Assembly: GCA_028279765.1 (NCBI GenBank) | Contig: JANQND010000011.1 | Coordinates: 30,976-94,975 of the forward strand | Direction of reading: 5' to 3' | From: Candidatus Nanoarchaeia archaeon | Lineage (GTDB): Archaea; Nanobdellota; Nanobdellia; Woesearchaeales; WJIZ01 | Length of the DNA stretch: 64,000 nt | In this document: one piece after another, positions 6,733 to 57,383 of the stretch | Layout: each line of letters begins with the position of its first letter | How positions within the stretch are numbered: position 1 is the first letter of the stretch | Program-made: the position numbers and the translations under genes | Notes under the pieces: generated by a model | What the model was told of the DNA's origin: nothing | What the model saw: the letters and a program-made list of their open reading frames with translations, nothing else | The model's database searches: none

Positions 6733-6999
6733 TCATTCAAGCCTCACCACATTAGTCGTAGGCAGCTTGATGCCGATCTTGCGAAGATTGACTAAGTCTT
6801 CTATCTGCTTTCGAGTAATCTTGAGGAATTCCTCATAATCTTTTGGCTTGAGCTTTCTGAGAAGGAAGTGGAAAGTATCAATATGGGTATTGTATACTCT
6901 TCCCATTATGGGATGTTTCTGCACACATTTCTTGCAGATGAAATGCGACCCAATGATTTCCAGCCAGGAATCTTCTCTCTTGCAGCTATCACAGTTCAT
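6733..6999 (-). CDS. small zinc-ribbon protein (CxxC...CxxC)
   Basis: MNCDSCK...FICKKCVQ. Overlaps the upstream GTPase gene by 4 nt on the same strand, so they are probably co-transcribed. Confidence 0.45.
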   Translation of the reverse strand: MNCDSCKREDSWLEIIGSHFICKKCVQKHPIMGRVYNTHIDTFHFLLRKLKPKDYEEFLKITRKQIEDLVNLRKIGIKLPTTNVVRLE

Positions 7000-7742
7000 T
7001 GTATTTCTCCCTTCTGCCAGTCTTTGATAATCATTCTTGCTGCTCTTTGAATATCAGCTTCCCCACCCTTTTTCAAGATATTCTTTTTGAGAGCGATCTG
7101 TTCAATGATTTCTTCCTGATCTTCCCTTTGGTCTTCCTGGTAGTGAGCCTCTATTTTTCCCGGAAATGATTCCATGAGCTCTAATACGATGAGATCGGGA
7201 TCTTTACATTTGGCATAATCAATGCTTCCGATAATCGTGTGCTTTGCCGTGTCTTTTTCTTTGTAGGGGATGACACCCGGAGTATCCAGAAACACTATTC
7301 TATTGTCTGCTCTCACTTTCTGAAGGCCTTTGGTATGGCCGCTTGAAGAGCTTGTTGAGGCCGAATGCTTTCCCTTCATGGCGTTTATTAATGAGCTCTT
7401 GCCTACATTCGGATATCCGAGAACCCCTACATTGGTTTTTTTGAACTGCGGATAGGCCCTGGTGGCTTCTATGAGAATCCTGTCTCTGAGCATGGTTGTT
7501 CCATGATGGTTCTTTGCCGAGATGAACACACAGGGTTTAAGTGTTTTCTTTTGCTTTTCAACGATTTCTTTGTCTACCAGATCACATTTTGTGAGGACAT
7601 AGATTAATGGTTTATTCGCTTTTTTTACTTTGTTTTCGATCTCTTTATTTCTGGTCTGCTCGATCATTCGTGCATCCAGAAGTAGTAGGAGCACATCAGC
7701 ATCTTCAATAACCTTGTTTACGACATTCCAAAAGTTTGGCAT
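6996..7742 (-). CDS. Circularly permuted ribosome-biogenesis GTPase (YlqF/RbgA/Nug1-like)
   Basis: The G4 motif (TKCDL) precedes the G1 P-loop (GYPNVGKSSLIN) and G3 (DTPG), which is the permuted order seen in YlqF-family GTPases. Confidence 0.7.
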   Translation of the reverse strand: MPNFWNVVNKVIEDADVLLLLLDARMIEQTRNKEIENKVKKANKPLIYVLTKCDLVDKEIVEKQKKTLKPCVFISAKNHHGTTMLRDRILIEATRAYPQFKKTNVGVLGYPNVGKSSLINAMKGKHSASTSSSSGHTKGLQKVRADNRIVFLDTPGVIPYKEKDTAKHTIIGSIDYAKCKDPDLIVLELMESFPGKIEAHYQEDQREDQEEIIEQIALKKNILKKGGEADIQRAARMIIKDWQKGEIQ

Positions 7743-8436: not shown

Positions 8437-8500
8437 TATTTTTATGTTAATTAGGACTGTAAGAACATACTTTTTTATAGTTTTCAACTATTTGTTACTT

Positions 8501-9118
8501 ATGGTGCAATCATTCAACGCTGAAGGAATACTCTTTTTCCCTTATGCACGGTTTATGAGAAAAGAGCTTGCCATCCCTCATCTGCAGATGAAGAATATTT
8601 CTCAACTTGACCCGAAAAAATTGAAAAAAGCCGGTATTAGGGCTGTTGTGTTTGATAAGGATAATACTCTGACTGAACCCTATGCTTTGATAGTACACCC
8701 CAGTATAAGAAAATCACTTGCTTCTTTTCGAAAAGAATTCGGCAAGAACCTTGCTATTCTCTCTAATTCTGCAGGATCAGCTGATGATAATGCCTTTCGG
8801 GATGCAAAGAACATTGAAAAATCGCTTGGCATCTCTGTCATCAGGCACAAAAAGAAAAAACCTTCCTGCATTGATGAGGTTGAGATGCATTTTGGGATAA
8901 AACGAGAGGAGATTGCCTGTATCGGTGATCGATTATTTACCGATACGGTGTTTGGGAACCGCTATGGCATGCTTACTATTTTGGTTGAACCGTTTACTCA
9001 TAAGAGAGATAATTGGTTTGCAAAGATGCTCGGTCTTTATGAAAGAAAATTACTCGAGAAATGGGAAAAGAAAGGAATGAGTCCTCTGGCGCATCCTGCT
9101 CAAGAAAAACTGGCTTAG
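8501..9118 (+). CDS. HAD-superfamily phosphatase, subfamily IIIA (YqeG/GEP4-like)
   Basis: Has the VVFDKDNTLT (DxDxT) motif and a downstream GDR..D motif. Start chosen at the internal ATG (MVQSFNAEG) to avoid overlapping the structured element. Confidence 0.65.
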   Translation: MVQSFNAEGILFFPYARFMRKELAIPHLQMKNISQLDPKKLKKAGIRAVVFDKDNTLTEPYALIVHPSIRKSLASFRKEFGKNLAILSNSAGSADDNAFRDAKNIEKSLGISVIRHKKKKPSCIDEVEMHFGIKREEIACIGDRLFTDTVFGNRYGMLTILVEPFTHKRDNWFAKMLGLYERKLLEKWEKKGMSPLAHPAQEKLA

Positions 9119-11040
9119 TTGCCTTCAAATTCTGCCCGTACAATATCGCGATCAATTCTTCGGATGCACTCAGACATTTTATCGCGCAGATCACCATCAG
9201 TTGTTGCCTTGATGATTTGCTTTTGCACATCAATGATTCTTCTGAATAACCGAATAATATCTCCTTCTAATAGGTTGCAGTACCCGAGCAACTCAATGAA
9301 CTGCTCCTCATTGGACCAGGCACTGATCATTGCGGTGAGCCGAAAGAGGCTTTTCTTGTTGATTTGACGATCAAGATAGCGATTAGGACAAATAATGCTT
9401 AGAATATGCCCATAGGTTGATTTGGCTCCTTTGGTCACGAATTTATCCATCCTGCGCTCTTCATACACAATTGCTGCAATGATACAGTTAATCTCTGTGA
9501 CAGAGAGTTTTTTGTACATCTGTGAATAAAAGAGTTCGCTGATGAGCAATTCTTCAAAATAGATATGGGTTGCGAAATCACCTTTTCCGGTGATGTGCTT
9601 TTCTTCATCGATATATCCCATCTTGGTCAGGTTTTTGACTTTATTGTTATAGGAGGCAACAATTCTTACTTGTTTATCCGACTTTGTTCGCAGAAAATAA
9701 TCAAAGTTACTCTTGAGAATCGTGTCGATCTCTTCTTCTGTGTGTGCCTTGATAAGGTTGAGAACCGTATTTACGGATAATCGAAATTGAGAGACAATCG
9801 GCTCAATGTCCTTATCGGTGAGTTTCTTTATTTTTTCAATGTCTGCCCGTCTTCGATCCACTAAGGCGATGACAGTTCCGTGCGTATCAATTCCTCTTCT
9901 TCCTGCTCTTCCTGCAAGCTGGAAATATTCTTTGGAATTGAGGTAGCGAAAGGAATACCCATCATATTTCTCTAATGAATCAAAACAGACGGTCTTTGCG
10001 GGCATATTGATCCCTACGGCAAAGGTTTCGGTTGCGTAGAGTACTGAGATGAGTCCTTTTTCAAAGAGCCGCTCTACAATCTCCTTGAGATTAGGGAGTA
10101 GTCCTGCGTGATGATAGGCAATTCCTTTGGTGAGGCACTCTCTGATCTTTCGATAGCTCTGCATTTGCCTCACTTCAGCATTGAGATGCTTATTGATGAT
10201 TTCGATGATTTCTTTTTTCTGCTGTTTTGAGCAGTAATCACGCATCTTAGCAAGCTCCTGGCTGTATTTCTCGCAGGATTTTCTGTTGAAGATAAAATAA
10301 ATGACCGGGACATTGTTTCCGATTTCCTTGATGAGGTCCTTGTGATTGGCAGGGTATTCTCTGGGCTGCTTTCTTCTTCCTCTGCTCCTGATGGAGTAGG
10401 TGGGAATGTCCTGGATATGGGTTAATTTCTCTACATCAGTAACCCCGAGGGTTTTCTCGAAGACTGAGTGCGTGAGGGGAACCGCTCGCTTGTCATGCGA
10501 GACCACATGCACGTTATGCCCTTTGATAGAGGAGATCCATTCAGCGAACTCTTCAGCATTGGGAATAGTAGCAGAGAGGCATAAGAACCGAATAGTAGTT
10601 GGAGAGAAAATAATGGATTCTTCCCAGACTGTTCCTCTTTCTCTATCAGAGATATAGTGAATTTCATCAAAGATAACATAGCTGAGATGCTCCATGATGT
10701 CATCGCGGCTCAACAGCATGTTTCGATAGATCTCAGTGGTCATGACTAAGAGCGGTGCATCGGGGTTGATAACAACATCACCAGTCATGATTCCTACATT
10801 TTCTTTGCCGTAATCATTGATGAAATCCTTGTACTTTTGATTTGAAAGCGCCTTGATAGGCGCCGTATAGATAACTCTTCTTTTGGATTCGAGAAATTTA
10901 TGAATAGTATAGTCGGCAGTAAGAGTTTTTCCTGTCCCGGTTGGTGCAGAGACAATGACCGAATCGTTGTTTTCGATATGATTGATGGACTGAACCTGAA
11001 ATTCGTCCAGTGTTAACCCTTTAAATTGCATGAATTTCAA
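9115..11040 (-). CDS. Ski2/Mtr4/HelY-like SF2 RNA helicase with C-terminal DSHCT domain
   Basis: Walker A APTGTGKT, a DEIH box and SAT. The C-terminus (LLEGDIIRLFRRIIDVQKQI...RRIDRDIV) resembles the DSHCT domain of Mtr4/Ski2/HelY. No arch/KOW insertion at 641 aa. Confidence 0.7.
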   Translation of the reverse strand: MKFMQFKGLTLDEFQVQSINHIENNDSVIVSAPTGTGKTLTADYTIHKFLESKRRVIYTAPIKALSNQKYKDFINDYGKENVGIMTGDVVINPDAPLLVMTTEIYRNMLLSRDDIMEHLSYVIFDEIHYISDRERGTVWEESIIFSPTTIRFLCLSATIPNAEEFAEWISSIKGHNVHVVSHDKRAVPLTHSVFEKTLGVTDVEKLTHIQDIPTYSIRSRGRRKQPREYPANHKDLIKEIGNNVPVIYFIFNRKSCEKYSQELAKMRDYCSKQQKKEIIEIINKHLNAEVRQMQSYRKIRECLTKGIAYHHAGLLPNLKEIVERLFEKGLISVLYATETFAVGINMPAKTVCFDSLEKYDGYSFRYLNSKEYFQLAGRAGRRGIDTHGTVIALVDRRRADIEKIKKLTDKDIEPIVSQFRLSVNTVLNLIKAHTEEEIDTILKSNFDYFLRTKSDKQVRIVASYNNKVKNLTKMGYIDEEKHITGKGDFATHIYFEELLISELFYSQMYKKLSVTEINCIIAAIVYEERRMDKFVTKGAKSTYGHILSIICPNRYLDRQINKKSLFRLTAMISAWSNEEQFIELLGYCNLLEGDIIRLFRRIIDVQKQIIKATTDGDLRDKMSECIRRIDRDIVRAEFEGN

Positions 11041-11064
11041 AGAAGTGAGGAGGTTTAAATAACT

Positions 11065-12970: not shown

Positions 12971-13074
12971 GGGCTCTTAGCTCAGCCTGGTTAGAGCGAT
13001 CGCCTCTTACGCGACTGGTTATATACCAGTATGAAGAAAGCGATAGGTCGGGGGTTCGAATCCCCTAGGGCCCA
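12971..13074 (+). tRNA. tRNA-Lys(CUU) with about 29-nt intron in the anticodon arm
   Basis: Cloverleaf folded by hand. Acceptor GGGCTCT/AGGGCCC, D-stem GCTC/GAGC, anticodon stem ATCGC/GCGAT, loop CUCUUA(A/C), T-stem GGGGG-TTCGAAT-CCCCT, discriminator A. The intron (~cgcgactggttatataccagtatgaagaa) contains its own hairpin. No CCA is encoded. Confidence 0.75.
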
Positions 13075-20551: not shown

Positions 20552-20646
20552 GGGCTGGTAGTTAAATCTGGAAGCTGGGAACAGTTGGATAATATAACGC
20601 GCCGCTGGCAGCGGTGAGGCTCCGGGTTCAAATCCCGGCCAGTCCA
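20552..20646 (+). tRNA. tRNA-Ala(GGC) with non-canonical intron (about 18-20 nt) in the D-loop
   Basis: Folded by hand. Acceptor GGGCTGG/CCAGTCC with a G3:U70 pair, the alanine identity element. U8-A9, D-stem GTTA/TAAC enclosing a 30-nt loop (normally 8-11), anticodon stem CGCCG/CGGTG, loop CUGGCAG, T-arm CCGGG-TTCAAAT-CCCGG, discriminator A. Confidence 0.65.
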
Positions 20647-27963: not shown

Positions 27964-29865
27964 CTACTTCAACCGAACCGTATCTAAATTCCTCGGCGCA
28001 GCGGTCTCAATTCTATTTTGCTTGTGAATCGAAGATGCTAAATCAGAACACCGTGAACTCTCGCCGTGGACAATAAGAACTCTTTTCGGTCGCGGATTGC
28101 ATTTATGCACGAAGCTCATCAACTGGTTTCTTCCGGAGTGGCCGGTTAATCCATCAATCGTATGAATTTCTAATTTTACTTTAAGCATATCGGGCTTGGT
28201 TGCCGTACCCATATTGATGTCGCGCTCTCCGCGCTGTATTCGCCTTCCCATAGATCCTTCTCCCTGATAGGATACAAAGGTCATGGTATTCTTTGGATTG
28301 TCTGCAAGATGCTTGAAGTACTCGACAGATGGACCGCCAACAAGCATACCGGAGGTTGCTAAAATTACGCAAGGTCCGGTTTCTTCAATGACTTCCATTC
28401 GCTCTTTTTGCGATCCGATTCGCTTGAACATGGGGTGCAAAAATGGATTATGGTCCTTGTGGAATATGAGTTTTCGAATAGAACTGTTGAGATATTCCGG
28501 ATACGCGGTATGAATTGCAGTAATATCCCATACCATTCCATCAATGATGACAGGAATTTCCTTAATAACATTCGTTCGCACCATCTCTTCGATTACCATC
28601 ATGACTTCCTGCGCTCTTCCTACACCCAGAACCGGGATAAGCACTTTTCCTCCCCTATTAAGAGTGGTACTGATGATATCTTTGATTTGAGCTTCGCACT
28701 CTTTTCTGGTCGGAAGAATATTGTCTCTGCCTCCATATGTCGATTCGATCATTAAGGTTTCTAACCGTGGGAACTCGGAGACCGCAGGCTCTAAGAGCGC
28801 AGTTCTTCCGTATTTCATGTCTGCACCGTAGAGAAGATTATGGAGCCCGTTTCCAATATGAATATGGACCATTGCACTTCCTAAGATATGTCCAGAGTTG
28901 TAGAAGGTGATTCTCATATCCGGCGTAATATCGGTTACTTCATTATAGTCAAGAGTGATGGTTTGCCTTACCGTATTCTTTACTTCTTCAGAAGTATAGA
29001 TGGGTTCTCTTCCTTCATTTCTCATGATTTTAATGAGGTCCAATTGCAGAAGAGACATGACATCTCTTGTAGGAGTGGTACAATAGATCGGTCCACTGTA
29101 TCCGAATTTCACTAAGTAGGGAATTAATGCTGAATGATCAAGATGTGCGTGGCTCACAATGACTGCATCTAATTCGCCTACCTTAAACTCAGGTGCTTCC
29201 AAGTATGGATATGCTTCAGGATTATCAGGAGTAAGCGATGGATCCATTCCGCAATCGAGGAGCACTCGTGATTCCGGGGTATGTAACAGGAAGCATGATC
29301 TTCCAACCTGTCTTCCTGCGCCAAGATAGGTTAATCGTACCCATTCATGCTTTTTCTCCCTCATCCATCCATCGTAGACTCGATGGCCTACTTTATCGAG
29401 GAATTTTCTTCTCCAGTCAGAGTTTTGGTAGAGAACGGAGCGGATGTTCTCGATTAATTTTGATCTAATTGCAGGCTTTCTTCGAATGGTTGGCACCCAC
29501 CTGGTTTTTTCTTTGATTTCTCTAAGCAGAGCTCCCTGCTTTCCGATGGCAAGGCCAGGCTTTTCTGCTTCAATGACCACCATGCTTCTTTGTGGGTCAA
29601 AGATAACCTGATCAATGCCAGCCTCATCAGTGAGAATTCTGCGAATTTCTTTTTCTGCTTCTTCCTGATCGATGGTTATGGATGGATCCGGCCGCAGCTC
29701 GATTCTTTTCTTGACTTTATCGACACACTGCCTAATCAATCCATTGTTATTTAGAAAGAAGTCTTGGTCTTTCGTATATAATACAATATTTGCTCCCTCA
29801 TAGCCTGCTGCTGAGATTTTATCATTAGGCAGGTCCTTGAGGATTTCCTTTATAATGTCAGCCAT
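27964..29865 (-). CDS. aCPSF1/FttA: KH-domain beta-CASP metallo-beta-lactamase ribonuclease (transcription termination factor)
   Basis: N-terminal tandem KH (GKQGALLREIK), MBL motif HAHLDHSALIPY, and beta-CASP motifs. Size 633 aa, typical of aCPSF1. Confidence 0.9.
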   Translation of the reverse strand: MADIIKEILKDLPNDKISAAGYEGANIVLYTKDQDFFLNNNGLIRQCVDKVKKRIELRPDPSITIDQEEAEKEIRRILTDEAGIDQVIFDPQRSMVVIEAEKPGLAIGKQGALLREIKEKTRWVPTIRRKPAIRSKLIENIRSVLYQNSDWRRKFLDKVGHRVYDGWMREKKHEWVRLTYLGAGRQVGRSCFLLHTPESRVLLDCGMDPSLTPDNPEAYPYLEAPEFKVGELDAVIVSHAHLDHSALIPYLVKFGYSGPIYCTTPTRDVMSLLQLDLIKIMRNEGREPIYTSEEVKNTVRQTITLDYNEVTDITPDMRITFYNSGHILGSAMVHIHIGNGLHNLLYGADMKYGRTALLEPAVSEFPRLETLMIESTYGGRDNILPTRKECEAQIKDIISTTLNRGGKVLIPVLGVGRAQEVMMVIEEMVRTNVIKEIPVIIDGMVWDITAIHTAYPEYLNSSIRKLIFHKDHNPFLHPMFKRIGSQKERMEVIEETGPCVILATSGMLVGGPSVEYFKHLADNPKNTMTFVSYQGEGSMGRRIQRGERDINMGTATKPDMLKVKLEIHTIDGLTGHSGRNQLMSFVHKCNPRPKRVLIVHGESSRCSDLASSIHKQNRIETAAPRNLDTVRLK

Positions 29866-32622: not shown

Positions 32623-34863
32623 GTGGTTGAGGCACTAACAGTATCTGAGACAGAAATCGAGGGCATTCCTTCTCTTATTGATGATCTTTCACAGACAATA
32701 GACAAGAAATCTTCGGATAGAGCCAGTTTGCGAAAGTCACCAATCTCTCATAAGAAGGAGAAGACAAAAAAGAAGAAAGGAAAAAAGAAAAAAACAGTTG
32801 AAAAAGCTGAAGAATTAAAGGAACCTACGAAGGAGTCAAAAAAAGAGAAGTCCAGAAAAAATACAAAGAACAAAAAAAAGAAATCAGAAAAAAAATCCTC
32901 CTCTGAAAAGGATTCATCAGATGAAGGATCAGAAAATTCAAACCATATTAGCATAACCTATACCAGGGAGAAGCAACTAGCTGCGTATAGGTCATCTACT
33001 TCTGAAGTACACTCGAACGAAAGCCAGCATCAATTTTACCGCACTTCCAAAGAAACACATCTGGGACTACTCACAGAGACGGATCATGTACTTATTGATT
33101 ATGTGTCGGGAGACAAACAACTGTCTATGCAGTACGATCGAATTGAGCAAGTTAGTCAAAAAACGAGCACCAGTAATTATGAGTCATTAGATCAGGCGAT
33201 TCATATTGATGCTGCAACTCGTGAAACCAAAACCATAGAGGAAAAAACGGTTAGATACCAGTCTGTAGACCAATCCACAGAAGCAATTACGATAGCTCAC
33301 AGTCAGGATAGTTCTCTTGAATCAACAGTGGTGGAGTATTCGTCATCACAGTCAGTTTCAGTTGTTAGCACAGACATAGCAACTCACACTGATCAGGGAG
33401 AATCTCACCTCTACCAGCAGCAGAATCAACAGAGTGAAAATGTGCAGGCAAGTGATGCTGCACCATATTCAGGCTCTTCATCTCAGGCTTCTGCAAACGA
33501 ACAAGTACATGCGGAGACTACTACTGCTCCGACACAAGATCTTTCTCTTGAGCAGGCTGCCGCTGCTTATACAGCTTCCGACTCTTCTGCTTTGTCCAGT
33601 TCTGATCCTTTGGTTCTTGCTACTGAAGAACCTGCAGCATCTCACTATCAGGCTGGTGCAGAGAGCACCACTACCGCTGCTCCTACTCAAGACTTTACCC
33701 TTGAGCAAGCCGCTATTGCCTATACAAACTCCGATACTATTGATATTGCTAGTTTTGATTCTGCTTTACAGGTTACTGAACAACAGATAGAAACTCAGTA
33801 CCAAGCTAATACAGAGGGCACTACTATCACTGCCCCTTCACAGGACCTAACGCTTGAGCAGGCTGCCACTGCTTATACAAACTCCGCTACTTTTGATCTT
33901 GCTAATTTTGATTCAGCTTTGGAGGCTACTGAACATTTACGAGATTCAAATCAAGGAGTGCAGGTCTCGCAAGAATTGGAACAGATTACTCAAAAGGAGG
34001 CGGTCCAATATCAAACAGGACAAACCAGTCAACAAGCTGAAACTCAGACAGTTGTACAAGATTCTCAGCAACAAAATGAAAGATATAGCAGTGGCAGTAA
34101 CAATCTTGAGCAAATAACAGTAGCTCCTTCTGGTGATAAGGAAATCCAATCAGTTCAGAATAAAACTGCATCAGCCAACGTAGAGGTGCAAAAGGAGAGT
34201 AATTACCGGTCAAGCGAGGCAGCTTCCAATGCCAGTGAAACAACACCTGTATATCGAGATTCTCAGTCACAGACTACAGCCGCCCAAAGTAGCTATAGGG
34301 AATCTTCTTCGTCCATTGATCAGGTGACAGGATCAACACCGTATACTCGGGAATCATCAGGAAGTCCAGAATCAGGATACAAGTCTCAATCAAGTAGCTA
34401 TACTCAAACTGAAACCTCGACTTCTTCATCAACTGTTGAAGTAGTGACCAGTATAGATGAAGTCACTGATAAAGCTCAAGACAACTATTCAGCTGAACCC
34501 TCTCTTGGAGAGCATGGCCATAACGGTCAAGATGATGGCCCGATGTATAATGGGGGAGAAGGGGATCATCCATATGATGGCGGTTGTGGGTGTGGTGCTT
34601 GCGCGACAGCTGGCTCTTCTCCTGTTGTATCCATGACGGAAGAGGGCGAAAAAGCGTATACTTCAGCGACAGAATTTAGCAATACTTCTCATAATTCAGA
34701 TAACGGGCAACCTGACTCGGGAGGAGATTATTCAGCTGATGCCCTGGCGGATATATTTAATATAGATATTGGGGCAAATGTTGATGATGCCAAAAAAGAC
34801 GCAGATCTTTGTGGCTGTGGTTGCGGAACGGAAGTTTACAAATCCTTAGAACCAATGCAGTAA
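32623..34863 (+). CDS. large intrinsically disordered K-rich/acidic Ser-Thr-Gln-rich repeat protein with C-terminal CGCG motifs
   Basis: 746-aa ORF from an apparent GTG start about 25 nt after a TATA-like box. Lys-rich N-terminal region, three imperfect 48-aa tandem repeats (TTAPTQDLSLEQAAAAYT...), C-terminal GGCGCGAC and CGCGCGTE. No signal peptide seen. Confidence 0.55.
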   Translation: MVEALTVSETEIEGIPSLIDDLSQTIDKKSSDRASLRKSPISHKKEKTKKKKGKKKKTVEKAEELKEPTKESKKEKSRKNTKNKKKKSEKKSSSEKDSSDEGSENSNHISITYTREKQLAAYRSSTSEVHSNESQHQFYRTSKETHLGLLTETDHVLIDYVSGDKQLSMQYDRIEQVSQKTSTSNYESLDQAIHIDAATRETKTIEEKTVRYQSVDQSTEAITIAHSQDSSLESTVVEYSSSQSVSVVSTDIATHTDQGESHLYQQQNQQSENVQASDAAPYSGSSSQASANEQVHAETTTAPTQDLSLEQAAAAYTASDSSALSSSDPLVLATEEPAASHYQAGAESTTTAAPTQDFTLEQAAIAYTNSDTIDIASFDSALQVTEQQIETQYQANTEGTTITAPSQDLTLEQAATAYTNSATFDLANFDSALEATEHLRDSNQGVQVSQELEQITQKEAVQYQTGQTSQQAETQTVVQDSQQQNERYSSGSNNLEQITVAPSGDKEIQSVQNKTASANVEVQKESNYRSSEAASNASETTPVYRDSQSQTTAAQSSYRESSSSIDQVTGSTPYTRESSGSPESGYKSQSSSYTQTETSTSSSTVEVVTSIDEVTDKAQDNYSAEPSLGEHGHNGQDDGPMYNGGEGDHPYDGGCGCGACATAGSSPVVSMTEEGEKAYTSATEFSNTSHNSDNGQPDSGGDYSADALADIFNIDIGANVDDAKKDADLCGCGCGTEVYKSLEPMQ
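33520..33960 (+). repeat. three imperfect tandem repeats of about 145 nt within the coding sequence
   Basis: Repeated units begin actactgctccgacacaagatctttctcttgagcaggctgcc, actaccgctgctcctactcaagactttacccttgagcaagccgct, and actatcactgccccttcacaggacctaacgcttgagcaggctgcc. Confidence 0.7.
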
Positions 34864-45468: not shown

Positions 45469-46206
45469 ATGCAACCAATGCAGCATCAAATGATGGGTTA
45501 TGATCGAGCGATAACCATGTTTTCTCCGGATGGGAGATTACTACAGGTAGAATATGCAAAAAAGACCGTACGGCAGGGCAGTACCGCAATAGGAATGGCT
45601 TGCTCTGACGGAGTTATTGTCGTAACAGACAAGCGAATCGTAGACAGCTTAATTGTTTCTGATTCTGTGGAAAAAATATTTCAGATTGATGAGCATATTA
45701 GCGCAACTGCGTCAGGCATTCTCTCTGATGCACGCGTTCTCATTGAGCGGGCGCAGGTGAAGGCGCAGCAGAATCGCATCACATTCGGATCCCCTATTGA
45801 TACCCTGAGCATTGTGAAAGATATTTGCTCCCTGAAACAAATTTGCACACAGTCTGGAGGCCTTCGGCCATTTGGTGTGTCTGTTCTGGTAGCGGGTATT
45901 GATAACGAAACTCCGCGCTTATATCAGACCGACCCTACGGGAATTTATTTTGAGTATAGGGCATCTGCTCTTGGAGAAGGTGGCGAAGAAGCCGAAGAAA
46001 TTCTCAAGAAGGAATACAAGCCTGAGCTTACCATGGATGAGGGGCTTGCGATTTCTGTTAGCGCTCTGAAAAAAGTATTAGGTGAGAAATTTAGCCTTGA
46101 TCGTGTAGATGCAGCGTATGTCTCCGTGAAGAATAAGGTATTTACCCGCTATACACGAGAAGAAATTGAAGCGGTATCCAGCGGAAAGAAAAAGAAGAAG
46201 AAATAG
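45469..46206 (+). CDS. psmA: Proteasome subunit alpha
   Basis: GYDRAITMFSPDGRLLQVEYA is the canonical alpha-subunit N-terminus. Confidence 0.9.
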   Translation: MQPMQHQMMGYDRAITMFSPDGRLLQVEYAKKTVRQGSTAIGMACSDGVIVVTDKRIVDSLIVSDSVEKIFQIDEHISATASGILSDARVLIERAQVKAQQNRITFGSPIDTLSIVKDICSLKQICTQSGGLRPFGVSVLVAGIDNETPRLYQTDPTGIYFEYRASALGEGGEEAEEILKKEYKPELTMDEGLAISVSALKKVLGEKFSLDRVDAAYVSVKNKVFTRYTREEIEAVSSGKKKKKK

Positions 46207-46256
46207 AGAATAAAGAGACGATAAATAAGTATGATTAAATTCTAAGGTGAAAAACA

Positions 46257-46988
46257 ATGAGTGAAATAGTAGTAAAGGAAAAGGAGATTGTCATTCCTGG
46301 CCAGCTACTGGCAAAAGGAATGGACACGTTTCCGGCATCCGGCTCCTACCGTGAAAAAGAAGATATTTTTTCAGGAAGAGTTGGTGTGGTATATATCGAC
46401 GGACGGGCAATCAAAGTTATTCCCCTCTCTGGCGCCTACATGCCAAAAGTTGGTGATGTTATCATTGCAAAAGTGATTGATATCACGATGAGCGGATGGA
46501 GAGTTGAGACTAATAGTGCCTACTCTGCAATGCTTCCCCTCAAGGATGCAACTTCTGAATATATTCAGCGGGGAGCAGATTTGTCCAGTTATTATGCGAT
46601 CGGCGATCATGTGGTCTGTAAGATCACGAATGTTACCAGCCAAAAACTGGTTGATGTTGCCATGCGCGATCCCGGACTCAAGAAATTATCTGGCGGGAGA
46701 ATTTTTAGTGTGAACACTAACAAGGTTCCCCGGATTATCGGCAAGAAAGGGTCTATGGTGAGCATGATAAAACAAGCAACTGGCTGCAGAATCGTTGTAG
46801 GACAGAACGGATTAGTATGGATCCAGGGAGAGACAGACAATGAGTTTATTGCTGTTGACACGATCAAGAAAATCGAGAAGGAATCCCATATTTCGGGACT
46901 TACGAATCGCATTAAAGAGTATCTTGAAGAGAGAACTCAAAAGAAGTTAGAAGGAGTTGAAGAGAATGAGCTACACACAAAGGCATGA
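46257..46988 (+). CDS. rrp4: Exosome complex RNA-binding protein Rrp4 (S1 + KH)
   Basis: N-terminal domain, S1 domain and KH domain (IIGKKGSMVSMI). Lies in the conserved position. Confidence 0.85.
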   Translation: MSEIVVKEKEIVIPGQLLAKGMDTFPASGSYREKEDIFSGRVGVVYIDGRAIKVIPLSGAYMPKVGDVIIAKVIDITMSGWRVETNSAYSAMLPLKDATSEYIQRGADLSSYYAIGDHVVCKITNVTSQKLVDVAMRDPGLKKLSGGRIFSVNTNKVPRIIGKKGSMVSMIKQATGCRIVVGQNGLVWIQGETDNEFIAVDTIKKIEKESHISGLTNRIKEYLEERTQKKLEGVEENELHTKA

Positions 46989-47673
46989 TGGCAGAGCACC
47001 GGATGAGCTTCGGGCAATGGAAGCAAAGGTTGGTGTGATCAAGAACGCAGACGGTTCTGCATTTTTCAAAATCGGCAATACCTCTGCATACGCAGCAGTG
47101 TATGGGCCCCGGAACCTGTATCCGAAGTTTTTGCAGAACCCGGACAAGGGAATTTTACGTTGCTCTTATAATATGCTGCCGTTCTCCGGTTCAGGAGAGC
47201 GAATCAGGCCAGGACAAAACAGGCGCGCAAAGGAAATCTCGATGGTTACCGAGAAAAGCTTGCTCTCTGTTCTGAACCTGGATGAGTATCCGAATGCAGT
47301 AGTTGATGTATTTATTGAACTGCCACAGACAGAGGCAGGCTCACGATGCGCAGGCATCTGCGCTGCATCCATGGCACTTGCTGATGCAGGGCTTTTGATG
47401 AAGGATTTAGTGAGTGCAGTCTCTGTTGGGCGAGTAGGTGATATGCTGGTGGTTGACCTTGATTATGCTGAAGAGGCGTATGAGGATGGACCCGTTGCGG
47501 ACATCCCCGTTGCTATGACGCATAACAGCTCAGAGGTTACGCTACTGCAAATGGATGGCGAGATCTCAAAGGATATGCTGATGAAAGCAGTTGAGATGGG
47601 AAAAGCAGCCTGCGAAAAAATCTATGAAGTTCAAAAAGAAGCACTGAAGAAGAAGTATGAAGGAGCTGAGTAA
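46957..47673 (+). CDS. rrp41: Exosome complex exonuclease Rrp41 (RNase PH-like)
   Basis: RNase PH domain (RHDGRAPDELR, GSAFFKIGNT). The start may be the internal Met at 46966. Confidence 0.85.
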   Translation: MKRMSYTQRHDGRAPDELRAMEAKVGVIKNADGSAFFKIGNTSAYAAVYGPRNLYPKFLQNPDKGILRCSYNMLPFSGSGERIRPGQNRRAKEISMVTEKSLLSVLNLDEYPNAVVDVFIELPQTEAGSRCAGICAASMALADAGLLMKDLVSAVSVGRVGDMLVVDLDYAEEAYEDGPVADIPVAMTHNSSEVTLLQMDGEISKDMLMKAVEMGKAACEKIYEVQKEALKKKYEGAE

Positions 47674-47674
47674 A

Positions 47675-48445
47675 ATGAGTGAATTAAAATCATATCTCGT
47701 TGACCTTTTGAAAAAAGGAAAGCGACTGGATGGCAGAAACATTCTTGATGTTCGAGCCCCTTTTACTATTGAATATGGCGTTTCCAGCACTGCAGAAGGC
47801 TCTGCCCAGGTTACCCTGGGAGACACTGTTGTTATGGCAGGTGTCAAAGTTGAAGTAGGAACACCATATCCTGACCAGCCGGATCAGGGATCCATCATGG
47901 TTGGGGCTGAACTTATTCCGCTTTCAAGCCCTCGTTTCGAGGCCGGACCCCCAACTATTGAGGCAATTGAGCTTGCCCGTGTTGTTGATCGTGGTATCAG
48001 GGAGAGTAAAGCTATAGATTTCAAGAAACTGTGCATCGAGGTTGGTGAAAAAGCCTGGATTATTATCATTGATATTGTAGTGATGAACGATGACGGCGGC
48101 TTGTTTGATGCTTCTTCGCTTGCGGTACTTGCTGCACTCAAGGACATGAAGTTCCCTGAGTATGCTGATGGCAAGATTGAGTATAAGAAGAAGACCGACA
48201 AGGGAATGGAGCTTGAGAAAGAGCCTATCGCGGTTACTGTCTTCAAGGTAGGGCCGCACCTGATTGTTGACCCAACCCGGGAAGAAGAAGAGGTTGCAGA
48301 TGCCCGCCTGACTATTACGACTACTGTCGACGGCACTATTTGCGCACTTCAGAAAGGTGGCGACTATCCGCTTCTTGAAGAGGAAATTTCTCAGATGATT
48401 GATATTGCTATCGAGAAAGCAAAAGTTCTGAGGGAGGCACTATAA
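47675..48445 (+). CDS. rrp42: Exosome complex subunit Rrp42 (inactive RNase PH-like)
   Basis: RNase PH-like fold. Start placed at MSELKSY directly after the rrp41 stop. The track's start at 47657 overlaps rrp41. Confidence 0.8.
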
Positions 48446-55176: not shown

Positions 55177-55395
55177 ATGAAGAAAAATGTGGCTTTTTGG
55201 CTACTAATATCTGTTTTACTAGCCTATGGTTGCTCAGAGTCCGGACAGAATCAGGTAAGCGGCAGTGCCACCAGTGATCTTCAGGAAACCGCCTGCAATG
55301 CTGCTCATAGAAACGGTGAGTGCAGCAGGCTAGGCAGTCTGAAACTGGCCTCTGTTGAGGTGTGCTGTAGCGAATACGGTAAGTGTTGCCCATGA
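55177..55395 (+). CDS. small secreted Cys-rich lipoprotein
   Basis: Signal peptide with lipobox LAYGC, then 7 Cys in 50 residues. Overlaps the start of the downstream beta-helix gene. Confidence 0.5.
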   Translation: MKKNVAFWLLISVLLAYGCSESGQNQVSGSATSDLQETACNAAHRNGECSRLGSLKLASVEVCCSEYGKCCP

Positions 55396-57383
55396 AAAAA
55401 ATAATCTTGCTCCTCAGTCTTTCTTTGCTGTTATCTACAGTTGTTTATGCAGAAAAAATCTTTCCGAATTGTCCCGTAGAATCAGATGAGGAAATGGAGA
55501 TCCAGCAGATCATTGGCCAGGGTTTGTTTGATTACCTAAAAAATCCAGAGGAGAGTTCCATTACTCAGGACGAGCTTAAAGATGTGATTGATTTCTATTT
55601 CGGATCAGACTCGTGCTATAATAAGGGATCAAGGACCAAGGCTGATTATATCGCAATTCTCAACAAGATAAGAAAAGTAGGCTTTCTGAATTTTCAGCAG
55701 GGTACTACCTGTGCCCTCAAGAATACTGTTGTTCCTAATGGCACCTGGCATAGAGAATTTATTTGTATTGATGGCCTCATGCATCCAGACTGCACCAATG
55801 AGAGTGCCAGCTGCCCGGCCGGAACATTGTGCAATGCAACTTCCGGGCGATGCTATCAGGAAGAATCCTATCTTTATTCCTGCGCAAATTCGACCATTGA
55901 GCCTAACTATTATATCCTGCAAAATGATGTGCAAGCTAACGAGAGTACGTGTTTTACTTTAGGAGCTGATCATACGGTACTTGACCTAAACGGGTTCACG
56001 ATTCATACTGAAGAGGGAGCTCATGCAGTGCAAGTTAATGCACAAAAAGTTACTATCAAAAATGGAGGCATCAGCGGTTTTTCCTCGGCAATTTCCGTTC
56101 AGGGATCTCAGAATGTTGTTGATGGAGTTACTGTAGAGCAGTCATCTAACGGGCTCGCAGTTGACATTAACGGAAATTTCAATATGGTCTCCTCAGTTAC
56201 TGCAGAGCAGGGAAGCGGTGTACGGGTAACTGGCAACAGAAATGCCATCAGTGGCCTTGTGGCCAGCGGTAATAAGATAATCGGGAATAATAACTGGATT
56301 AAGGATAGTACTATTGATGGAAAAAACATTGCGGGAAGCAAAGGGATATATCTTACAGGTACGGGAAACAATGTGACTGACAATACTATCTCTAAGCACA
56401 AAGCTGCAGGTATTCATGTTTTCAGCAGCTCTAAAGGTTATATTAAGGATAATATCTTTTCTTCTAATTATGACGGGATTTATCTGCAGAACTCTGAACA
56501 TACGATAGTTACTGACAACACCATTGGATCAAGCTCAAGCAAGGCAATTTATTTGAGGAGTACTAAATCGGCAGCAGTGAATCGTAATACCATTAACGGT
56601 GGTGTACACAGTATTCGACTCTCGCACTCTGATAGCAACGCGATGAAGCATAATACTATCATTGGTAGCAGCTATGGCCCTTACCTGTATAGATCTGATA
56701 GCAACAGGGTCTACTACAATGATATTACGAATGTGAAAAACTATGGAACGTATGTGAAGTATAGCTATAGGAACTACTTGTTCGCGAACGATATTATCAA
56801 TAGCAAGAAAGAAGGTATTTATTTGTCCAGGTCTCATAAAAATACTCTTAGTTCAAATGATGTGGAAAATTCAAAGAGTTATGGTATCAGGCTTTCCTCA
56901 AGCGATAGCAATAAAATGAGGTATAATGATGTCATTAAGGCTAAGAAGTCGGGATACCGGCTCTATGATAGTGATAAGAACTTACTTTGGAGAAATGATG
57001 CAGTAGAAGGAAATTCGTATGGGTTCTATATTTATAACAGTGACAAAAATAAACTTTCCTTTGATATAGCAAAGCGAAACAAAGGAAGAGGATTTTATCT
57101 CTCCAGCAGCAGCAGCAGCTCGTATAAAGTTTCTAAATATAATGACCTGAATAGGATAAGATCGTATGACAATAAGTATTATGGAATCTTCTTGCGTTAC
57201 CACAAGTACACCAAATTGCGGAACACTGTCTCCTGCGGCAATAAGGTTGCCGATCTGGCATGTGCACATAAGCCCTCGACCTTTAGCGACAACACTGCTG
57301 AGAAGTCCAGTAGTGCATATGGTGGCTGCAAAAAATCCGTAAGCAAATGTTCTGATGTAGAATATTTCTATGGAAGAAATTAA
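55383..57383 (+). CDS. secreted right-handed parallel beta-helix repeat protein with Cys-rich N-terminal domain
   Basis: Signal peptide, a conserved 150-aa 8-Cys domain (FPNCP...SCPAGTLCNATSGRCY), and more than 12 PbH1-like repeats (N.I..N...GI.L..S..N.I..N). Confidence 0.65.
   Translation: MLPMKKIILLLSLSLLLSTVVYAEKIFPNCPVESDEEMEIQQIIGQGLFDYLKNPEESSITQDELKDVIDFYFGSDSCYNKGSRTKADYIAILNKIRKVGFLNFQQGTTCALKNTVVPNGTWHREFICIDGLMHPDCTNESASCPAGTLCNATSGRCYQEESYLYSCANSTIEPNYYILQNDVQANESTCFTLGADHTVLDLNGFTIHTEEGAHAVQVNAQKVTIKNGGISGFSSAISVQGSQNVVDGVTVEQSSNGLAVDINGNFNMVSSVTAEQGSGVRVTGNRNAISGLVASGNKIIGNNNWIKDSTIDGKNIAGSKGIYLTGTGNNVTDNTISKHKAAGIHVFSSSKGYIKDNIFSSNYDGIYLQNSEHTIVTDNTIGSSSSKAIYLRSTKSAAVNRNTINGGVHSIRLSHSDSNAMKHNTIIGSSYGPYLYRSDSNRVYYNDITNVKNYGTYVKYSYRNYLFANDIINSKKEGIYLSRSHKNTLSSNDVENSKSYGIRLSSSDSNKMRYNDVIKAKKSGYRLYDSDKNLLWRNDAVEGNSYGFYIYNSDKNKLSFDIAKRNKGRGFYLSSSSSSSYKVSKYNDLNRIRSYDNKYYGIFLRYHKYTKLRNTVSCGNKVADLACAHKPSTFSDNTAEKSSSAYGGCKKSVSKCSDVEYFYGRN

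What the first reader, a model, noticed from the sequence alone, without database searches (positions are those of the whole stretch)
9115..11040. Mtr4/Ski2/HelY-type helicase with DSHCT domain in an archaeon that also encodes the exosome
The 641-aa SF2 helicase ends in a clear DSHCT-like segment (LLEGDIIRLFRRIIDVQKQI...MSECIRRIDRDIV). This domain is characteristic of the eukaryotic exosome cofactors Mtr4 and Ski2 and of bacterial HelY. The protein lacks the arch/KOW insertion. Archaeal exosomes are generally described as lacking an Mtr4-like helicase cofactor. A compact DSHCT helicase encoded about 35 kb from the rrp4-rrp41-rrp42 operon is therefore worth examining as a possible exosome- or RNA-decay-associated helicase, or as a horizontal acquisition.
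Basis: partly seen in the sequence, partly recalled or inferred. Interest (0 to 1): 0.5.

Follow-up and report, generated by a model that had tools for sequence, protein, structure and literature searches.

The report
Archless bacterial-type DSHCT helicase in Woesearchaeota
This DPANN archaeon (Woesearchaeota) really does encode a compact Mtr4/Ski2/HelY-family RNA helicase that surveys of archaeal helicases have missed, but it looks like an old acquisition from bacteria and nothing found here ties it to the exosome.

Summary
ORF 9115..11040(-) most likely starts at ATG 11031 (638 aa). It is an intact DExH helicase with a Pfam DSHCT domain (87.5 bits, cutoff 22.7). It has no arch/KOW insertion and no N-terminal extension. 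Its best solved relative is arch-deleted human MTR4 (E 1e-117; AF2 model TM 0.85); Hel308 is far weaker. The ratchet helix is Mtr4/Ski2-type (R597, R601, D604), not Hel308-type.

The gene is not a singleton. At least 511 species genomes encode relatives, and the best 80 loci, all 48-74% identical, are Woesearchaeota-type and include closed genomes. The 2024 survey of archaeal Ski2-like helicases called this group (COG4581) eukaryote-only.

The interpretation needs correcting. The nearest non-Woesearchaeota relatives are bacterial (Bacillota 44%, versus Asgard 38% and Mtr4 36%). In bootstrapped NJ trees the clade sits among bacteria in 87% (scoredist) or 41% (Kimura) of replicates and never joins eukaryotes plus Asgard. 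Archless forms are common in bacteria.

None of 80 related loci has an exosome gene within 10 kb, and the Mtr4 parts reported to bind adaptors and Rrp6-Rrp47 are absent. The best reading is an ancient bacterial acquisition acting as a 3'-to-5' RNA helicase with an unknown partner. An exosome role is possible but unsupported.

The parts
9115..11031 (-). Helicase CDS, 638 aa from ATG 11031 (the mechanical ORF extends to TTG 11040, 641 aa). The stop codon is at 9115-9117.
   Evidence: ORF list. The homologue P0001 is 100% identical and 638 aa, and all homologues start at the M4 equivalent. Sequence read.
11054..11062 (-). TATA-like TTATTTAAA centred about 27 nt upstream of ATG 11031. Putative archaeal promoter of a leaderless mRNA (inferred, not tested).
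   Evidence: Sequence read directly.
10456..11031 (-). RecA1 domain (aa ~4-195) with motif I GTGKT, motif II DEIH and motif III SAT.
   Evidence: Pfam DEAD 13-164. Motifs are invariant in 24 homologues. AF2 model.
9796..10305 (-). RecA2 domain (aa ~246-415) with motif VI QLAGRAGRRG and the beta-hairpin KYDGYSFRY.
   Evidence: Pfam Helicase_C 272-383. Alignment to MTR4. Invariant columns. AF2 strands at model residues 354-356 and 361-363 (query 357-359 and 364-366).
9601..9795 (-). Winged-helix domain (aa ~416-480). The point where Mtr4/Ski2 carry the arch (aa ~450-470; nt ~9631-9690) has no insertion here.
   Evidence: Single-stretch alignment to arch-deleted MTR4. Insertion sizes measured on alignments.
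9139..9597 (-). DSHCT / helical-bundle (ratchet) domain, aa 482-634.
   Evidence: Pfam PF08148, E 1.1e-24, 87.5 bits against GA 22.7.
9214..9267 (-). Ratchet-helix motif EGDIIRLFRRIIDVQKQI (aa 592-609). R597, R601 and D604 correspond to yeast Mtr4 R1026, R1030 and E1033.
   Evidence: Column read-out across clades. Residue roles from PMC4267639.
6996..7742 (-). YlqF/RbgA-like circularly permuted ribosome-biogenesis GTPase. It is the only recurrent neighbour of the helicase (10 of 80 related loci). It is context only and not shown to be functionally linked.
   Evidence: NCBIfam TIGR03596, 139.5 bits, below the cutoff of 208. Pfam MMR_HSR1. Neighbourhood counts.
46257..48445 (+). rrp4-rrp41-rrp42 exosome operon (Rrp4 46257-46988, Rrp41 46957-47673, Rrp42 47657-48445). 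It is context cited by the finding and is not linked to the helicase by any test here.
   Evidence: Pfam RRP4_S1/KH and RNase_PH/RNase_PH_C hits. 0 of 80 related loci have these genes near the helicase.

Best explanation
The gene encodes an arch-less, N-terminally minimal member of the DSHCT (COG4581; Mtr4/Ski2/HelY) branch of Ski2-like DExH helicases.

By homology to Mtr4 it should bind a single-stranded RNA 3' end and thread it between the two RecA domains and the ratchet helix of the C-terminal DSHCT bundle. The base-contacting residues on that helix would be R597, R601 and D604. It should then translocate 3'-to-5' on ATP hydrolysis and strip off duplex or protein at the RecA2 beta-hairpin. 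It lacks the arch/KOW module and the N-terminal tail, which in Mtr4 bind adaptors and Rrp6-Rrp47. It is therefore most likely a stand-alone or loosely recruited unwinding motor, not an adaptor hub.

The gene is a stable, lineage-wide component of Woesearchaeota genomes. It most probably entered their ancestor from bacteria, whose relatives carry no arch or a short helical 'mini-arch'.

Its cellular role is inferred, not shown. The likeliest role is to help 3'-to-5' RNA decay or rRNA/ribosome-associated RNA processing by clearing structure ahead of a nuclease. That nuclease could be the exosome.

Shown here: domain identity, architecture, conservation, distribution, and the lack of genomic linkage. 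Inferred: RNA substrate, polarity, bacterial origin and partner.
For: Identity:
- Pfam DSHCT scores 87.5 bits against a cutoff of 22.7.
- phmmer against PDB gives MTR4 at 1e-117, yeast Mtr4 and Ski2 at about 1e-110, Hel308 at 1.9e-46 and Brr2 at about 1e-42.
- The AF2 model (pLDDT 85.5) matches arch-deleted MTR4 at TM 0.85 with 35% identity, against Hel308 at 0.70-0.76 with 20-23%.

Catalytic competence:
- Motifs I, II (DEIH), III and VI are invariant in 24 homologues.
- The ratchet helix reads R-x3-R-x2-D, as in Mtr4/Ski2 (R1026, R1030, E1033), not the Hel308 Trp.
- Engineered arch-less Mtr4 keeps the wild-type unwinding rate (PMC4267639).

Lineage-wide gene:
- More than 120 clusters at 53-76% identity.
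- At least 511 GTDB species genomes encode a relative. The best 80 loci are Woesearchaeota-type and include the closed genomes CP060219, CP010425 and OY970338.
- GC content does not differ from the surroundings, and the neighbours are native archaeal genes: TFE, L15e, Pth2.

Bacterial affinity:
- The best non-Woesearchaeota representatives are mini-arch proteins. Named members come from Bacillota, Wallbacteria, Muiribacteriota, Riflebacteria and Poribacteria.
- Arch-less forms are common in Omnitrophota, Planctomycetota and Actinomycetota.
- Mean identity to the query is 44% for Bacillota, 38% for Asgard, 36% for Mtr4 and 35% for Ski2. Bacillota is highest, or within one point of the highest, in every region.
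- In NJ on labelled taxa (606 columns, 300 bootstraps), Woesearchaeota are monophyletic in 94% of replicates. They fall in an exclusive clade with bacterial lineages in 87% (scoredist) or 41% (Kimura). They join eukaryotes plus Asgard in 0%.
- Batista 2024 found no COG4581 member among the 466 archaeal Ski2-like sequences it retained.
Against: - The deep backbone of the larger 171-sequence NJ tree is poorly supported (10-56%).
- Only distance methods were available, and the root rests on distant, partly truncated outgroups (Hel308, Lhr, DEAD-box). Bacterial origin is therefore favoured but not proven.
- No biochemical data exist for any arch-less natural member.
- No conserved partner gene was found in archaeal or bacterial contexts, so the pathway assignment is by analogy only.
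- Mycobacterial HelY is reported (from my own knowledge, not read here) to unwind RNA:DNA hybrids as well, so a DNA-related role is not excluded.
Confidence: 0.6

Rival explanations
1. It is a dedicated exosome cofactor, a functional analogue of Mtr4/Ski2. It would dock on the Rrp4/Csl4 cap of the Woesearchaeota exosome and feed unwound RNA 3' ends into the Rrp41-Rrp42 channel.
For: The helicase core and DSHCT domain are the same as in the two eukaryotic exosome helicases. The same genome encodes Rrp4, Rrp41 and Rrp42. In eukaryotes the helicase core also contacts Rrp4 directly (PMC10411580). Arch-less Mtr4 still unwinds RNA.
Against: - There is no genomic linkage: the genes are 35 kb apart here, and 0 of 80 related loci have exosome genes within 10 kb.
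- The closest relatives are in bacteria, which have no exosome.
- The Mtr4 N-terminus and arch are absent.
- No homologue of the eukaryotic tethering factors (Rrp6, Rrp47, Mpp6, Ski7) was looked for in the window or the related loci.
- Co-occurrence across genomes could not be tested.
Confidence: 0.2
2. It is a ribosome-associated helicase that works in rRNA maturation or in clearing RNA from stalled ribosomes. This would resemble Ski2 on 80S ribosomes or Streptomyces HelY in the WblC regulon. It might act together with the YlqF-type GTPase.
For: The only recurrent neighbour is a YlqF/RbgA-like ribosome-biogenesis GTPase, in 10 of 80 loci and directly downstream on the same strand in 5. S. coelicolor HelY is enriched in the ribosome fraction under tetracycline stress (PMC7157823). 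Mtr4 processes 5.8S precursors.
Against: The GTPase is adjacent in only 12% of loci, and in this window it is separated by two genes, one on the opposite strand. Deleting helY in Streptomyces had only a marginal phenotype. There is no direct evidence in any archaeon.
Confidence: 0.15
3. It is a vertically inherited archaeal protein, a relic of the ancestor of eukaryotic Mtr4/Ski2 retained in DPANN, and not a bacterial import.
For: It shares 35-36% full-length identity with Mtr4 and has the same domain order. A second archaeal group, Hodarchaeales, also has the family. The NJ backbone is weak in the large tree.
Against: The Woesearchaeota clade never joins Asgard plus eukaryotes in 600 bootstrap replicates across two distance measures. 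It is more similar to Bacillota than to Asgard or eukaryotes in almost every region (RecA1 is tied with Poribacteria, WH is one point below Actinomycetota). The fourth-turn Asp is shared with the Bacillota, WMR and Poribacteria clades, though it also occurs in 2 of 4 Asgard sequences. No member of the family was reported from other archaea.
Confidence: 0.1
4. It is a Hel308-type DNA repair helicase, or the helicase subunit of a defence system such as Hachiman HamB, and the C-terminus has been misread as DSHCT.
For: Generic Ski2-like similarity: Hel308 models score 148-184 bits and HamB models up to 132 bits.
Against: The Hel308 equivalog cutoffs (887-1216 bits) are missed by a wide margin. DSHCT clears its cutoff fourfold. 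The ratchet helix has Asp where Hel308 has Trp. Separate Hel308-type genes exist in Woesearchaeota loci. No nuclease gene recurs next to the helicase across 81 loci, although HamA was not searched for by name. No viral relatives were found.
Confidence: 0.02

Closest known systems
Eukaryotic Mtr4 (MTREX/Dob1), in particular the engineered arch-deleted construct (PDB 6C90)
   Same: Same four-domain ring: RecA1, RecA2, winged helix and the DSHCT/ratchet bundle. E 1e-117, 35% identity, TM 0.85. DExH motifs, the RecA2 beta-hairpin and the ratchet-helix R-x3-R-x2-acidic pattern are all present.
   Different: There is no arch (stalk plus KOW) and no N-terminal extension. The fourth-turn residue is Asp, not Glu. 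It falls outside the eukaryotic Mtr4+Ski2 clade (bs 100) and never groups with eukaryotes plus Asgard. The Mtr4 partner proteins (Rrp6/Rrp47, Mpp6, Air/Trf4, ZCCHC8) were not searched for here.
Eukaryotic Ski2 (SKIV2L)
   Same: DSHCT helicase core, with E about 1e-109 and TM 0.81-0.82.
   Different: It lacks the long N-terminal region of roughly 140-360 aa that Ski2 representatives carry ahead of the helicase core, and it lacks the arch. Overall identity is 35%.
Bacterial HelY and related uncharacterised COG4581 helicases (Actinomycetota HelY; Bacillota, Wallbacteria, Riflebacteria and Muiribacteriota mini-arch forms; Omnitrophota and Planctomycetota arch-less forms)
   Same: These are the closest relatives outside Woesearchaeota: 44-49% identity in the core and 36% in DSHCT. 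They have the same short N-terminus and are also stand-alone genes without a conserved partner. Arch-less forms of about 650 aa exist in several bacterial phyla.
   Different: The nearest bacterial clades carry a 105-125 aa helical mini-arch with two CX7C pairs, which is absent here. The host is an archaeon with an exosome, not PNPase-based decay. The gene has an archaeal-looking TATA element.
Archaeal Hel308 and ASH-Ski2 (the two archaeal Ski2-like families recognised so far)
   Same: SF2 Ski2-like fold with a winged helix and a ratchet-type domain 4. TM 0.70-0.76 to Hel308.
   Different: Identity is only 20-23%. The Hel308 equivalog cutoffs are not met. DSHCT replaces the Hel308 domain 4/5 with its HhH, and there is no N-terminal zinc finger as in ASH-Ski2. 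Hel308-type genes are separate paralogues in Woesearchaeota loci.

Membership tests
DSHCT-containing Ski2-like helicases (COG4581: Mtr4/Ski2/HelY) | C-terminal DSHCT (PF08148) domain above the Pfam gathering threshold | tested here: met
   87.5 bits against 22.7, covering profile positions 3-170 of 172. It is also present in all listed homologues.
DSHCT-containing Ski2-like helicases (COG4581: Mtr4/Ski2/HelY) | Intact DExH helicase core (motifs I, II DExH, III, VI) | tested here: met
   GTGKT, DEIH, SAT and QLAGRAGRRG are invariant in 24 homologues. Pfam DEAD and Helicase_C hits.
DSHCT-containing Ski2-like helicases (COG4581: Mtr4/Ski2/HelY) | [quoted passage not shown] | tested here: met
   R597, R601 and D604. 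In Woesearchaeota the counts are D 12/12, R597 12/12 and R601 8/12. Criterion from PMC4267639.
DSHCT-containing Ski2-like helicases (COG4581: Mtr4/Ski2/HelY) | RNA-stimulated ATPase and 3'-to-5' RNA unwinding | not testable with these tools
   Needs purified protein.
Mtr4/Ski2 proper (eukaryotic exosome helicases) | Arch insertion (stalk plus KOW/beta-barrel) within the winged-helix domain | tested here: not met
   Insertion size is 0. There is no PF13234 or PF21408 hit, and the protein aligns in a single stretch to arch-deleted MTR4.
Mtr4/Ski2 proper (eukaryotic exosome helicases) | N-terminal region that binds Rrp6-Rrp47 (Mtr4) or Ski3 (Ski2) | tested here: not met
   The helicase core begins at about residue 10. 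Eukaryotic representatives carry 24-152 (Mtr4, excluding the arch-less P0209) or roughly 140-360 (Ski2) extra N-terminal residues.
Mtr4/Ski2 proper (eukaryotic exosome helicases) | Phylogenetic placement inside or sister to the eukaryotic clade | tested here: not met
   The eukaryotic clade has bs 99-100 without it. Woesearchaeota plus eukaryotes plus Asgard occurs in 0% of bootstraps. NJ only.
Mtr4/Ski2 proper (eukaryotic exosome helicases) | Physical or functional association with the exosome | not testable with these tools
   The only proxy is genomic: 0 of 80 loci are linked. Genome-wide co-occurrence could not be computed.
Archaeal Hel308 | Scores above the NCBIfam Hel308 equivalog cutoffs; domain 4 Trp ratchet residue; domain 5 HhH | tested here: not met
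   148-184 bits against cutoffs of 887-1216. Asp at the Trp position. DSHCT replaces domain 5.
Hachiman HamB (defence helicase) | HamB-specific profile match as the best family, and an adjacent HamA nuclease | tested here: not met
   HamB scores at most 132 bits, against about 397 bits for MTR4. No nuclease gene recurs among neighbours in 81 loci; HamA was not searched for by name.

The most novel reading that the evidence does not exclude
Woesearchaeota recruited a bacterial arch-less DSHCT helicase as a true helicase cofactor of the archaeal exosome. This would be an independent, convergent origin of the 'Ski2-like helicase feeds the exosome' arrangement that eukaryotes built from a different (Asgard-type, arch-bearing) branch of the same family. 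It would be the first archaeal exosome with an Mtr4-like motor.
Probability: 0.15. Interest if true: 0.7.

Novelty: new member of a known kind. Interest (0 to 1): 0.4.

Why it matters
The field's current map of archaeal Ski2-like helicases lists Hel308, ASH-Ski2 and a few Brr2-like proteins. It states that the Mtr4/Ski2 group is exclusively eukaryal (PMC10946056).

This result shows that a whole DPANN order carries a member of that group. In passing, it also shows that Hodarchaeales carry an arch-bearing one closer to eukaryotes.

That adds a candidate RNA-decay helicase to archaea whose exosome has no known motor. It also provides a naturally minimal (638 aa) DSHCT helicase for structure and biochemistry, and a clear case of bacterial gene flow into DPANN informational machinery.

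It does not by itself show a helicase-exosome partnership. The protein's mechanism is expected to be ordinary for its family.

Tried and rejected
- **Gene neighbourhood across 80 Woesearchaeota loci plus the window.** I used ORF calling and all-vs-all BLAST clustering at two stringencies. There is no conserved operon, only a YlqF-like GTPase in 10 of 81.
- **tblastn of the window's Rrp4, Rrp41, Rrp42, PsmA and aCPSF1 against those loci.** No hits.
- **Contexts of four bacterial relatives**. No shared partner. An RNase_T exonuclease sits downstream in one Bacillota genome only.
- **The listing of cluster members for taxonomy.** The first call returned no organism names. Later calls named a minority.
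- **171-sequence NJ tree.** The backbone was too weak to place the clade, so I replaced it with a labelled 62-taxon set and two distance measures.
- **The human MTR4 I1014 - EXOSC2 M40 contact as a test of exosome docking.** The aligned column is not conserved even among Mtr4 representatives in my alignment, so I dropped the argument.
- **Viral-contig scan.** No relatives.
- **PADLOC.** Only generic HamB similarity.
- **Literature searches.** DSHCT+archaea, Mtr4+Woesearchaeota, COG4581 and DPANN+exosome found no description of this family.
- **Not attempted.** I did not predict a helicase-Rrp4 complex, because the structure tool takes single chains from the window only.
Full report
**1. The observation**

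The 100%-identical database entry is 638 aa, and every homologue begins at the equivalent of Met4 (MQFKG...). The true start is therefore almost certainly ATG 11031. A TATA-like TTATTTAAA lies about 27 nt upstream, which fits an archaeal leaderless transcript; this is inferred from the sequence only.

Pfam finds DEAD (aa 13-164), Helicase_C (272-383) and DSHCT PF08148 (482-634). DSHCT has E 1.1e-24 and 87.5 bits against a cutoff of 22.7, covering nearly the whole model. No arch or stalk family is hit. The NCBIfam Hel308 equivalog models reach only 148-184 bits against cutoffs of 887-1216.

**2. The host**

The window is archaeal.
- Proteasome alpha followed by Rrp4, Rrp41 and Rrp42 at 45469-48445.
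- aCPSF1/FttA, 870 bits.
- TFE-alpha, L15e and Pth2.
- A 104-nt, probably intron-containing, tRNA.

Database names for close homologues are Woesearchaeota, Nanoarchaeota or Nanobdellota, which is DPANN. GC content around the gene does not differ from its surroundings.

**3. What the protein is**

- **Sequence against solved structures.** The best hit is the arch-deleted human MTR4 construct 6C90, at E 1e-117 in a single alignment over residues 10-636. Next come full-length MTR4, yeast Mtr4, FRH and Ski2 at about 1e-107 to 1e-113. Hel308 is at 1.9e-46 and Brr2 at about 1e-42.
- **Structure.** An AlphaFold2 model built on 24 homologues has pLDDT 85.5 and pTM 0.77. Foldseek puts arch-deleted MTR4 first (TM 0.85, 35% identity) and Ski2 at 0.81-0.82. 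Hel308/Hjm reach only 0.70-0.76 at 20-23% identity.
- **Motifs.** Helicase motifs I (GTGKT), II (DEIH), III (SAT) and VI (QLAGRAGRRG) are invariant across the family.
- **Ratchet helix.** Taylor et al. 2014 (PMC4267639) show that Mtr4/Ski2 ratchet helices carry Arg at turns two and three (R1026, R1030) and an invariant Glu at turn four (E1033). Hel308 has Trp there. The query has R597, R601 and D604, and Asp is 12/12 in the Woesearchaeota sampled.

Neither is met.

**4. Architecture**

Relative to Mtr4/Ski2 the protein has no insertion at the arch site (query aa ~450-470) and no N-terminal extension. Arch deletion does not change Mtr4's unwinding rate in vitro. A natural arch-less protein should therefore still be a competent motor. 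It would lack the arch, the platform reported to bind adaptors and structured RNA.

**5. Distribution**

The gene is not a singleton.
- More than 120 clusters at 53-76% identity, all about 620-660 aa (apart from a few fragments) and all with DSHCT.
- At least 511 GTDB species genomes encode a relative. The best 80 loci (48-74% identity) are Woesearchaeota-type and include closed genomes CP060219, CP010425 (AR15) and OY970338.
- Some records are titled 'uncultured Methanosarcinales/Thermoplasmatales archaeon'. These are probably placeholder names.

An exhaustive HMMER scan of 1.84 billion representatives finds 3,211 proteins at E<=1e-30. The top 150 fall into three architectures defined by the insert at the arch site:
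- none (620-690 aa);
- a 105-125-aa 'mini-arch' (735-810 aa);
- a 200-500-aa arch (about 850-1400 aa).

The names I could recover are as follows.

| Group | Architecture | Taxa |
|---|---|---|
| Mini-arch clades | mini-arch | Bacillota (Clostridia, Limnochordia, Desulfitobacteriia, Carboxydocella, Hydrogenispora), Wallbacteria, Muiribacteriota, Riflebacteria, Poribacteria |
| Arch-less clades | none | Omnitrophota, Planctomycetota, PVC, Actinomycetota ('HelY'), and one Bacillota clade |
| Asgard | full arch | Hodarchaeales |
| Eukaryotes | full arch | Mtr4 and Ski2, verified against PDB |

**6. Origin**

Mean identity of the query over shared columns is 44% to Bacillota, 43% to Poribacteria, 40% to the Wall/Muiri/Rifle group and 39% to Omnitrophota/PVC. 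It is 38% to Asgard, 36% to Mtr4 and 35% to Ski2. Bacillota is highest, or within one point of the highest, in every region.

A 171-sequence NJ tree recovers eukaryotic Mtr4+Ski2 at bootstrap 100 but has a weak backbone.

I then used a 62-sequence set of labelled taxa, with 606 columns, 300 bootstraps, and Hel308/Lhr/DEAD-box paralogues from Woesearchaeota loci as outgroup.

| Result | scoredist | Kimura |
|---|---|---|
| Woesearchaeota monophyletic | 94% | 64% |
| Exclusive clade with Bacillota, WMR, Omnitrophota/PVC and Poribacteria | 87% | 41% |
| Grouped with eukaryotes plus Asgard | 0% | 0% |

The family is spread over many bacterial phyla. Batista et al. [quoted passage not shown] Transfer from bacteria into an ancestor of Woesearchaeota, with loss or absence of the mini-arch, is therefore the most economical reading.

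It is not proven. Only distance methods were available, and rooting relies on distant outgroups.

**7. Function**

Nothing in gene order helps.
- Across 81 loci the only recurrent neighbour is a YlqF/RbgA-like circularly permuted GTPase. It occurs in 10 loci and is directly downstream in 5. In the window it lies two genes away.
- No locus has exosome, proteasome or aCPSF1 genes within 10 kb of the helicase.
- Four bacterial contexts share no partner. One Bacillota genome has an RNase_T-family exonuclease 119 bp downstream.
- PADLOC gives only generic HamB similarity, and no viral contig encodes a relative. A defence or mobile-element role is therefore unlikely.

In eukaryotes, Mtr4 is held on the exosome by its N-terminus (via Rrp6-Rrp47), by Mpp6 and by a direct contact with Rrp4. 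Adaptors bind the arch (PMC10411580; PMC10946056). The Woesearchaeota protein lacks both the N-terminus and the arch. Only a core-to-cap contact could be conserved, and I could not test that.

Streptomyces HelY is induced by WblC and enriched on ribosomes under tetracycline stress (PMC7157823). That observation and the occasional YlqF adjacency keep a ribosome-linked role open.

**8. Most likely mechanism**

This follows from homology and is not shown. The protein is an ATP-driven 3'-to-5' translocase on single-stranded RNA. The strand is threaded between RecA1/RecA2 and the DSHCT ratchet helix. Duplex or protein is displaced at the RecA2 beta-hairpin. The motor works without built-in adaptor modules and supports RNA decay or processing. 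The partner nuclease is unknown, and the exosome is one candidate.

**9. Novelty and verdict**

The protein is a new, lineage-wide archaeal member of a known helicase family, in a reduced architecture that also occurs in bacteria but has not been studied. I found no paper that describes it.

It corrects a statement in the literature and offers a testable candidate for the missing archaeal exosome helicase. The evidence here points to a bacterial-type housekeeping helicase, not an Mtr4 orthologue. Interest is moderate.

Noticed in passing
Proteins P0230/P0390 (847-868 aa), P0218 (1008 aa) and P0203 (960 aa); not in the window: Hodarchaeales (Asgard) encode DSHCT helicases with a full-size (~240 aa) arch insertion. 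They fall on the eukaryote side of the NJ trees (bs 76 for the Asgard clade; bs 31-56 for the nodes joining it to the eukaryote side). Batista 2024 reported COG4581 as eukaryote-only, and a 2024 preprint mentions Mtr4 in Hodarchaeales in a single sentence. This may bear on the origin of the eukaryotic exosome helicases.
   Followed up: partly
P0126 (775 aa, Bacillota-type relative), residues ~459-590; alignments A2 and A4: Bacterial relatives carry a 105-125 aa 'mini-arch' at the Mtr4 arch site. AF2 (pLDDT 88.3) predicts four long helices forming two hairpins. The invariant pairs C490/C498 and C555/C563 (CX7C twice) sit in the hairpin loops, which suggests a zinc clasp. There is no KOW domain, and the Pfam MTR4-like stalk hits are below threshold.
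   Followed up: partly
window 8444-9118 (+): A YqeG-family HAD-IIIA phosphatase (TIGR01668, 144 bits against cutoff 89; Pfam 'mitochondrial PGP phosphatase'). It is convergent with the helicase and overlaps its stop codon by 4 nt. From my own knowledge this family is best known from bacteria and eukaryotes, so it may be another bacterial-type gene. It is found next to the helicase in only 1 of 80 related loci.
   Followed up: partly
window 6996-7742 (-): A YlqF/RbgA-like circularly permuted GTPase (TIGR03596, 139.5 bits, below the cutoff of 208). It is the only recurrent neighbour of the helicase in Woesearchaeota (10 of 80 loci).
   Followed up: partly
window 12971-13074 (+): A 104-nt tRNA detected by Rfam (56.4 bits) but missed by ARAGORN in bacterial mode. 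It probably contains an intron. A second tRNA, Ala(GGC), lies at 20578-20646.
   Followed up: no
window 27964-29865 (-): aCPSF1/FttA, a beta-CASP ribonuclease and transcription termination factor (TIGR03675, 870 bits). It is another RNA 3'-end enzyme on the same contig.
   Followed up: no
window 32623-34863 (+): A 746-aa ORF with no Pfam hit at E<=1e-3.
   Followed up: no
window 55383-57383 and 57404-59644 (+): Two adjacent large NosD/right-handed beta-helix proteins, one with a laminin-G-like domain. They are probably surface proteins.
   Followed up: no
L081-L084, 8378-9253 (Bacillota contigs carrying P0145): An RNase_T-family (DEDD) 3'-5' exonuclease gene sits 119 bp downstream of the bacterial mini-arch helicase on the same strand. 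This pairing was not seen in three other bacterial contexts.
   Followed up: partly
L005 6489-8777, L042 6403-7950, L053 2595-5408, L052 15152-16612: Woesearchaeota loci also carry Hel308-type genes (PRK02362, ~434 bits over the C-terminal part), an Lhr-type gene (PRK13767, 1179 bits) and a DEAD-box (CshA-like) helicase gene. The DSHCT helicase is therefore an additional paralogue, not a replacement for Hel308.
   Followed up: partly
Record titles of L002, L007, L008, L015-L017, L022, L030, L037 and others: Many genome records in the Woesearchaeota helicase clade are titled 'uncultured Methanosarcinales archaeon', 'Thermoplasmatales' or 'Thermoplasmatota'. These are probably placeholder or mis-assigned names for DPANN MAGs. 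I did not verify this.
   Followed up: no
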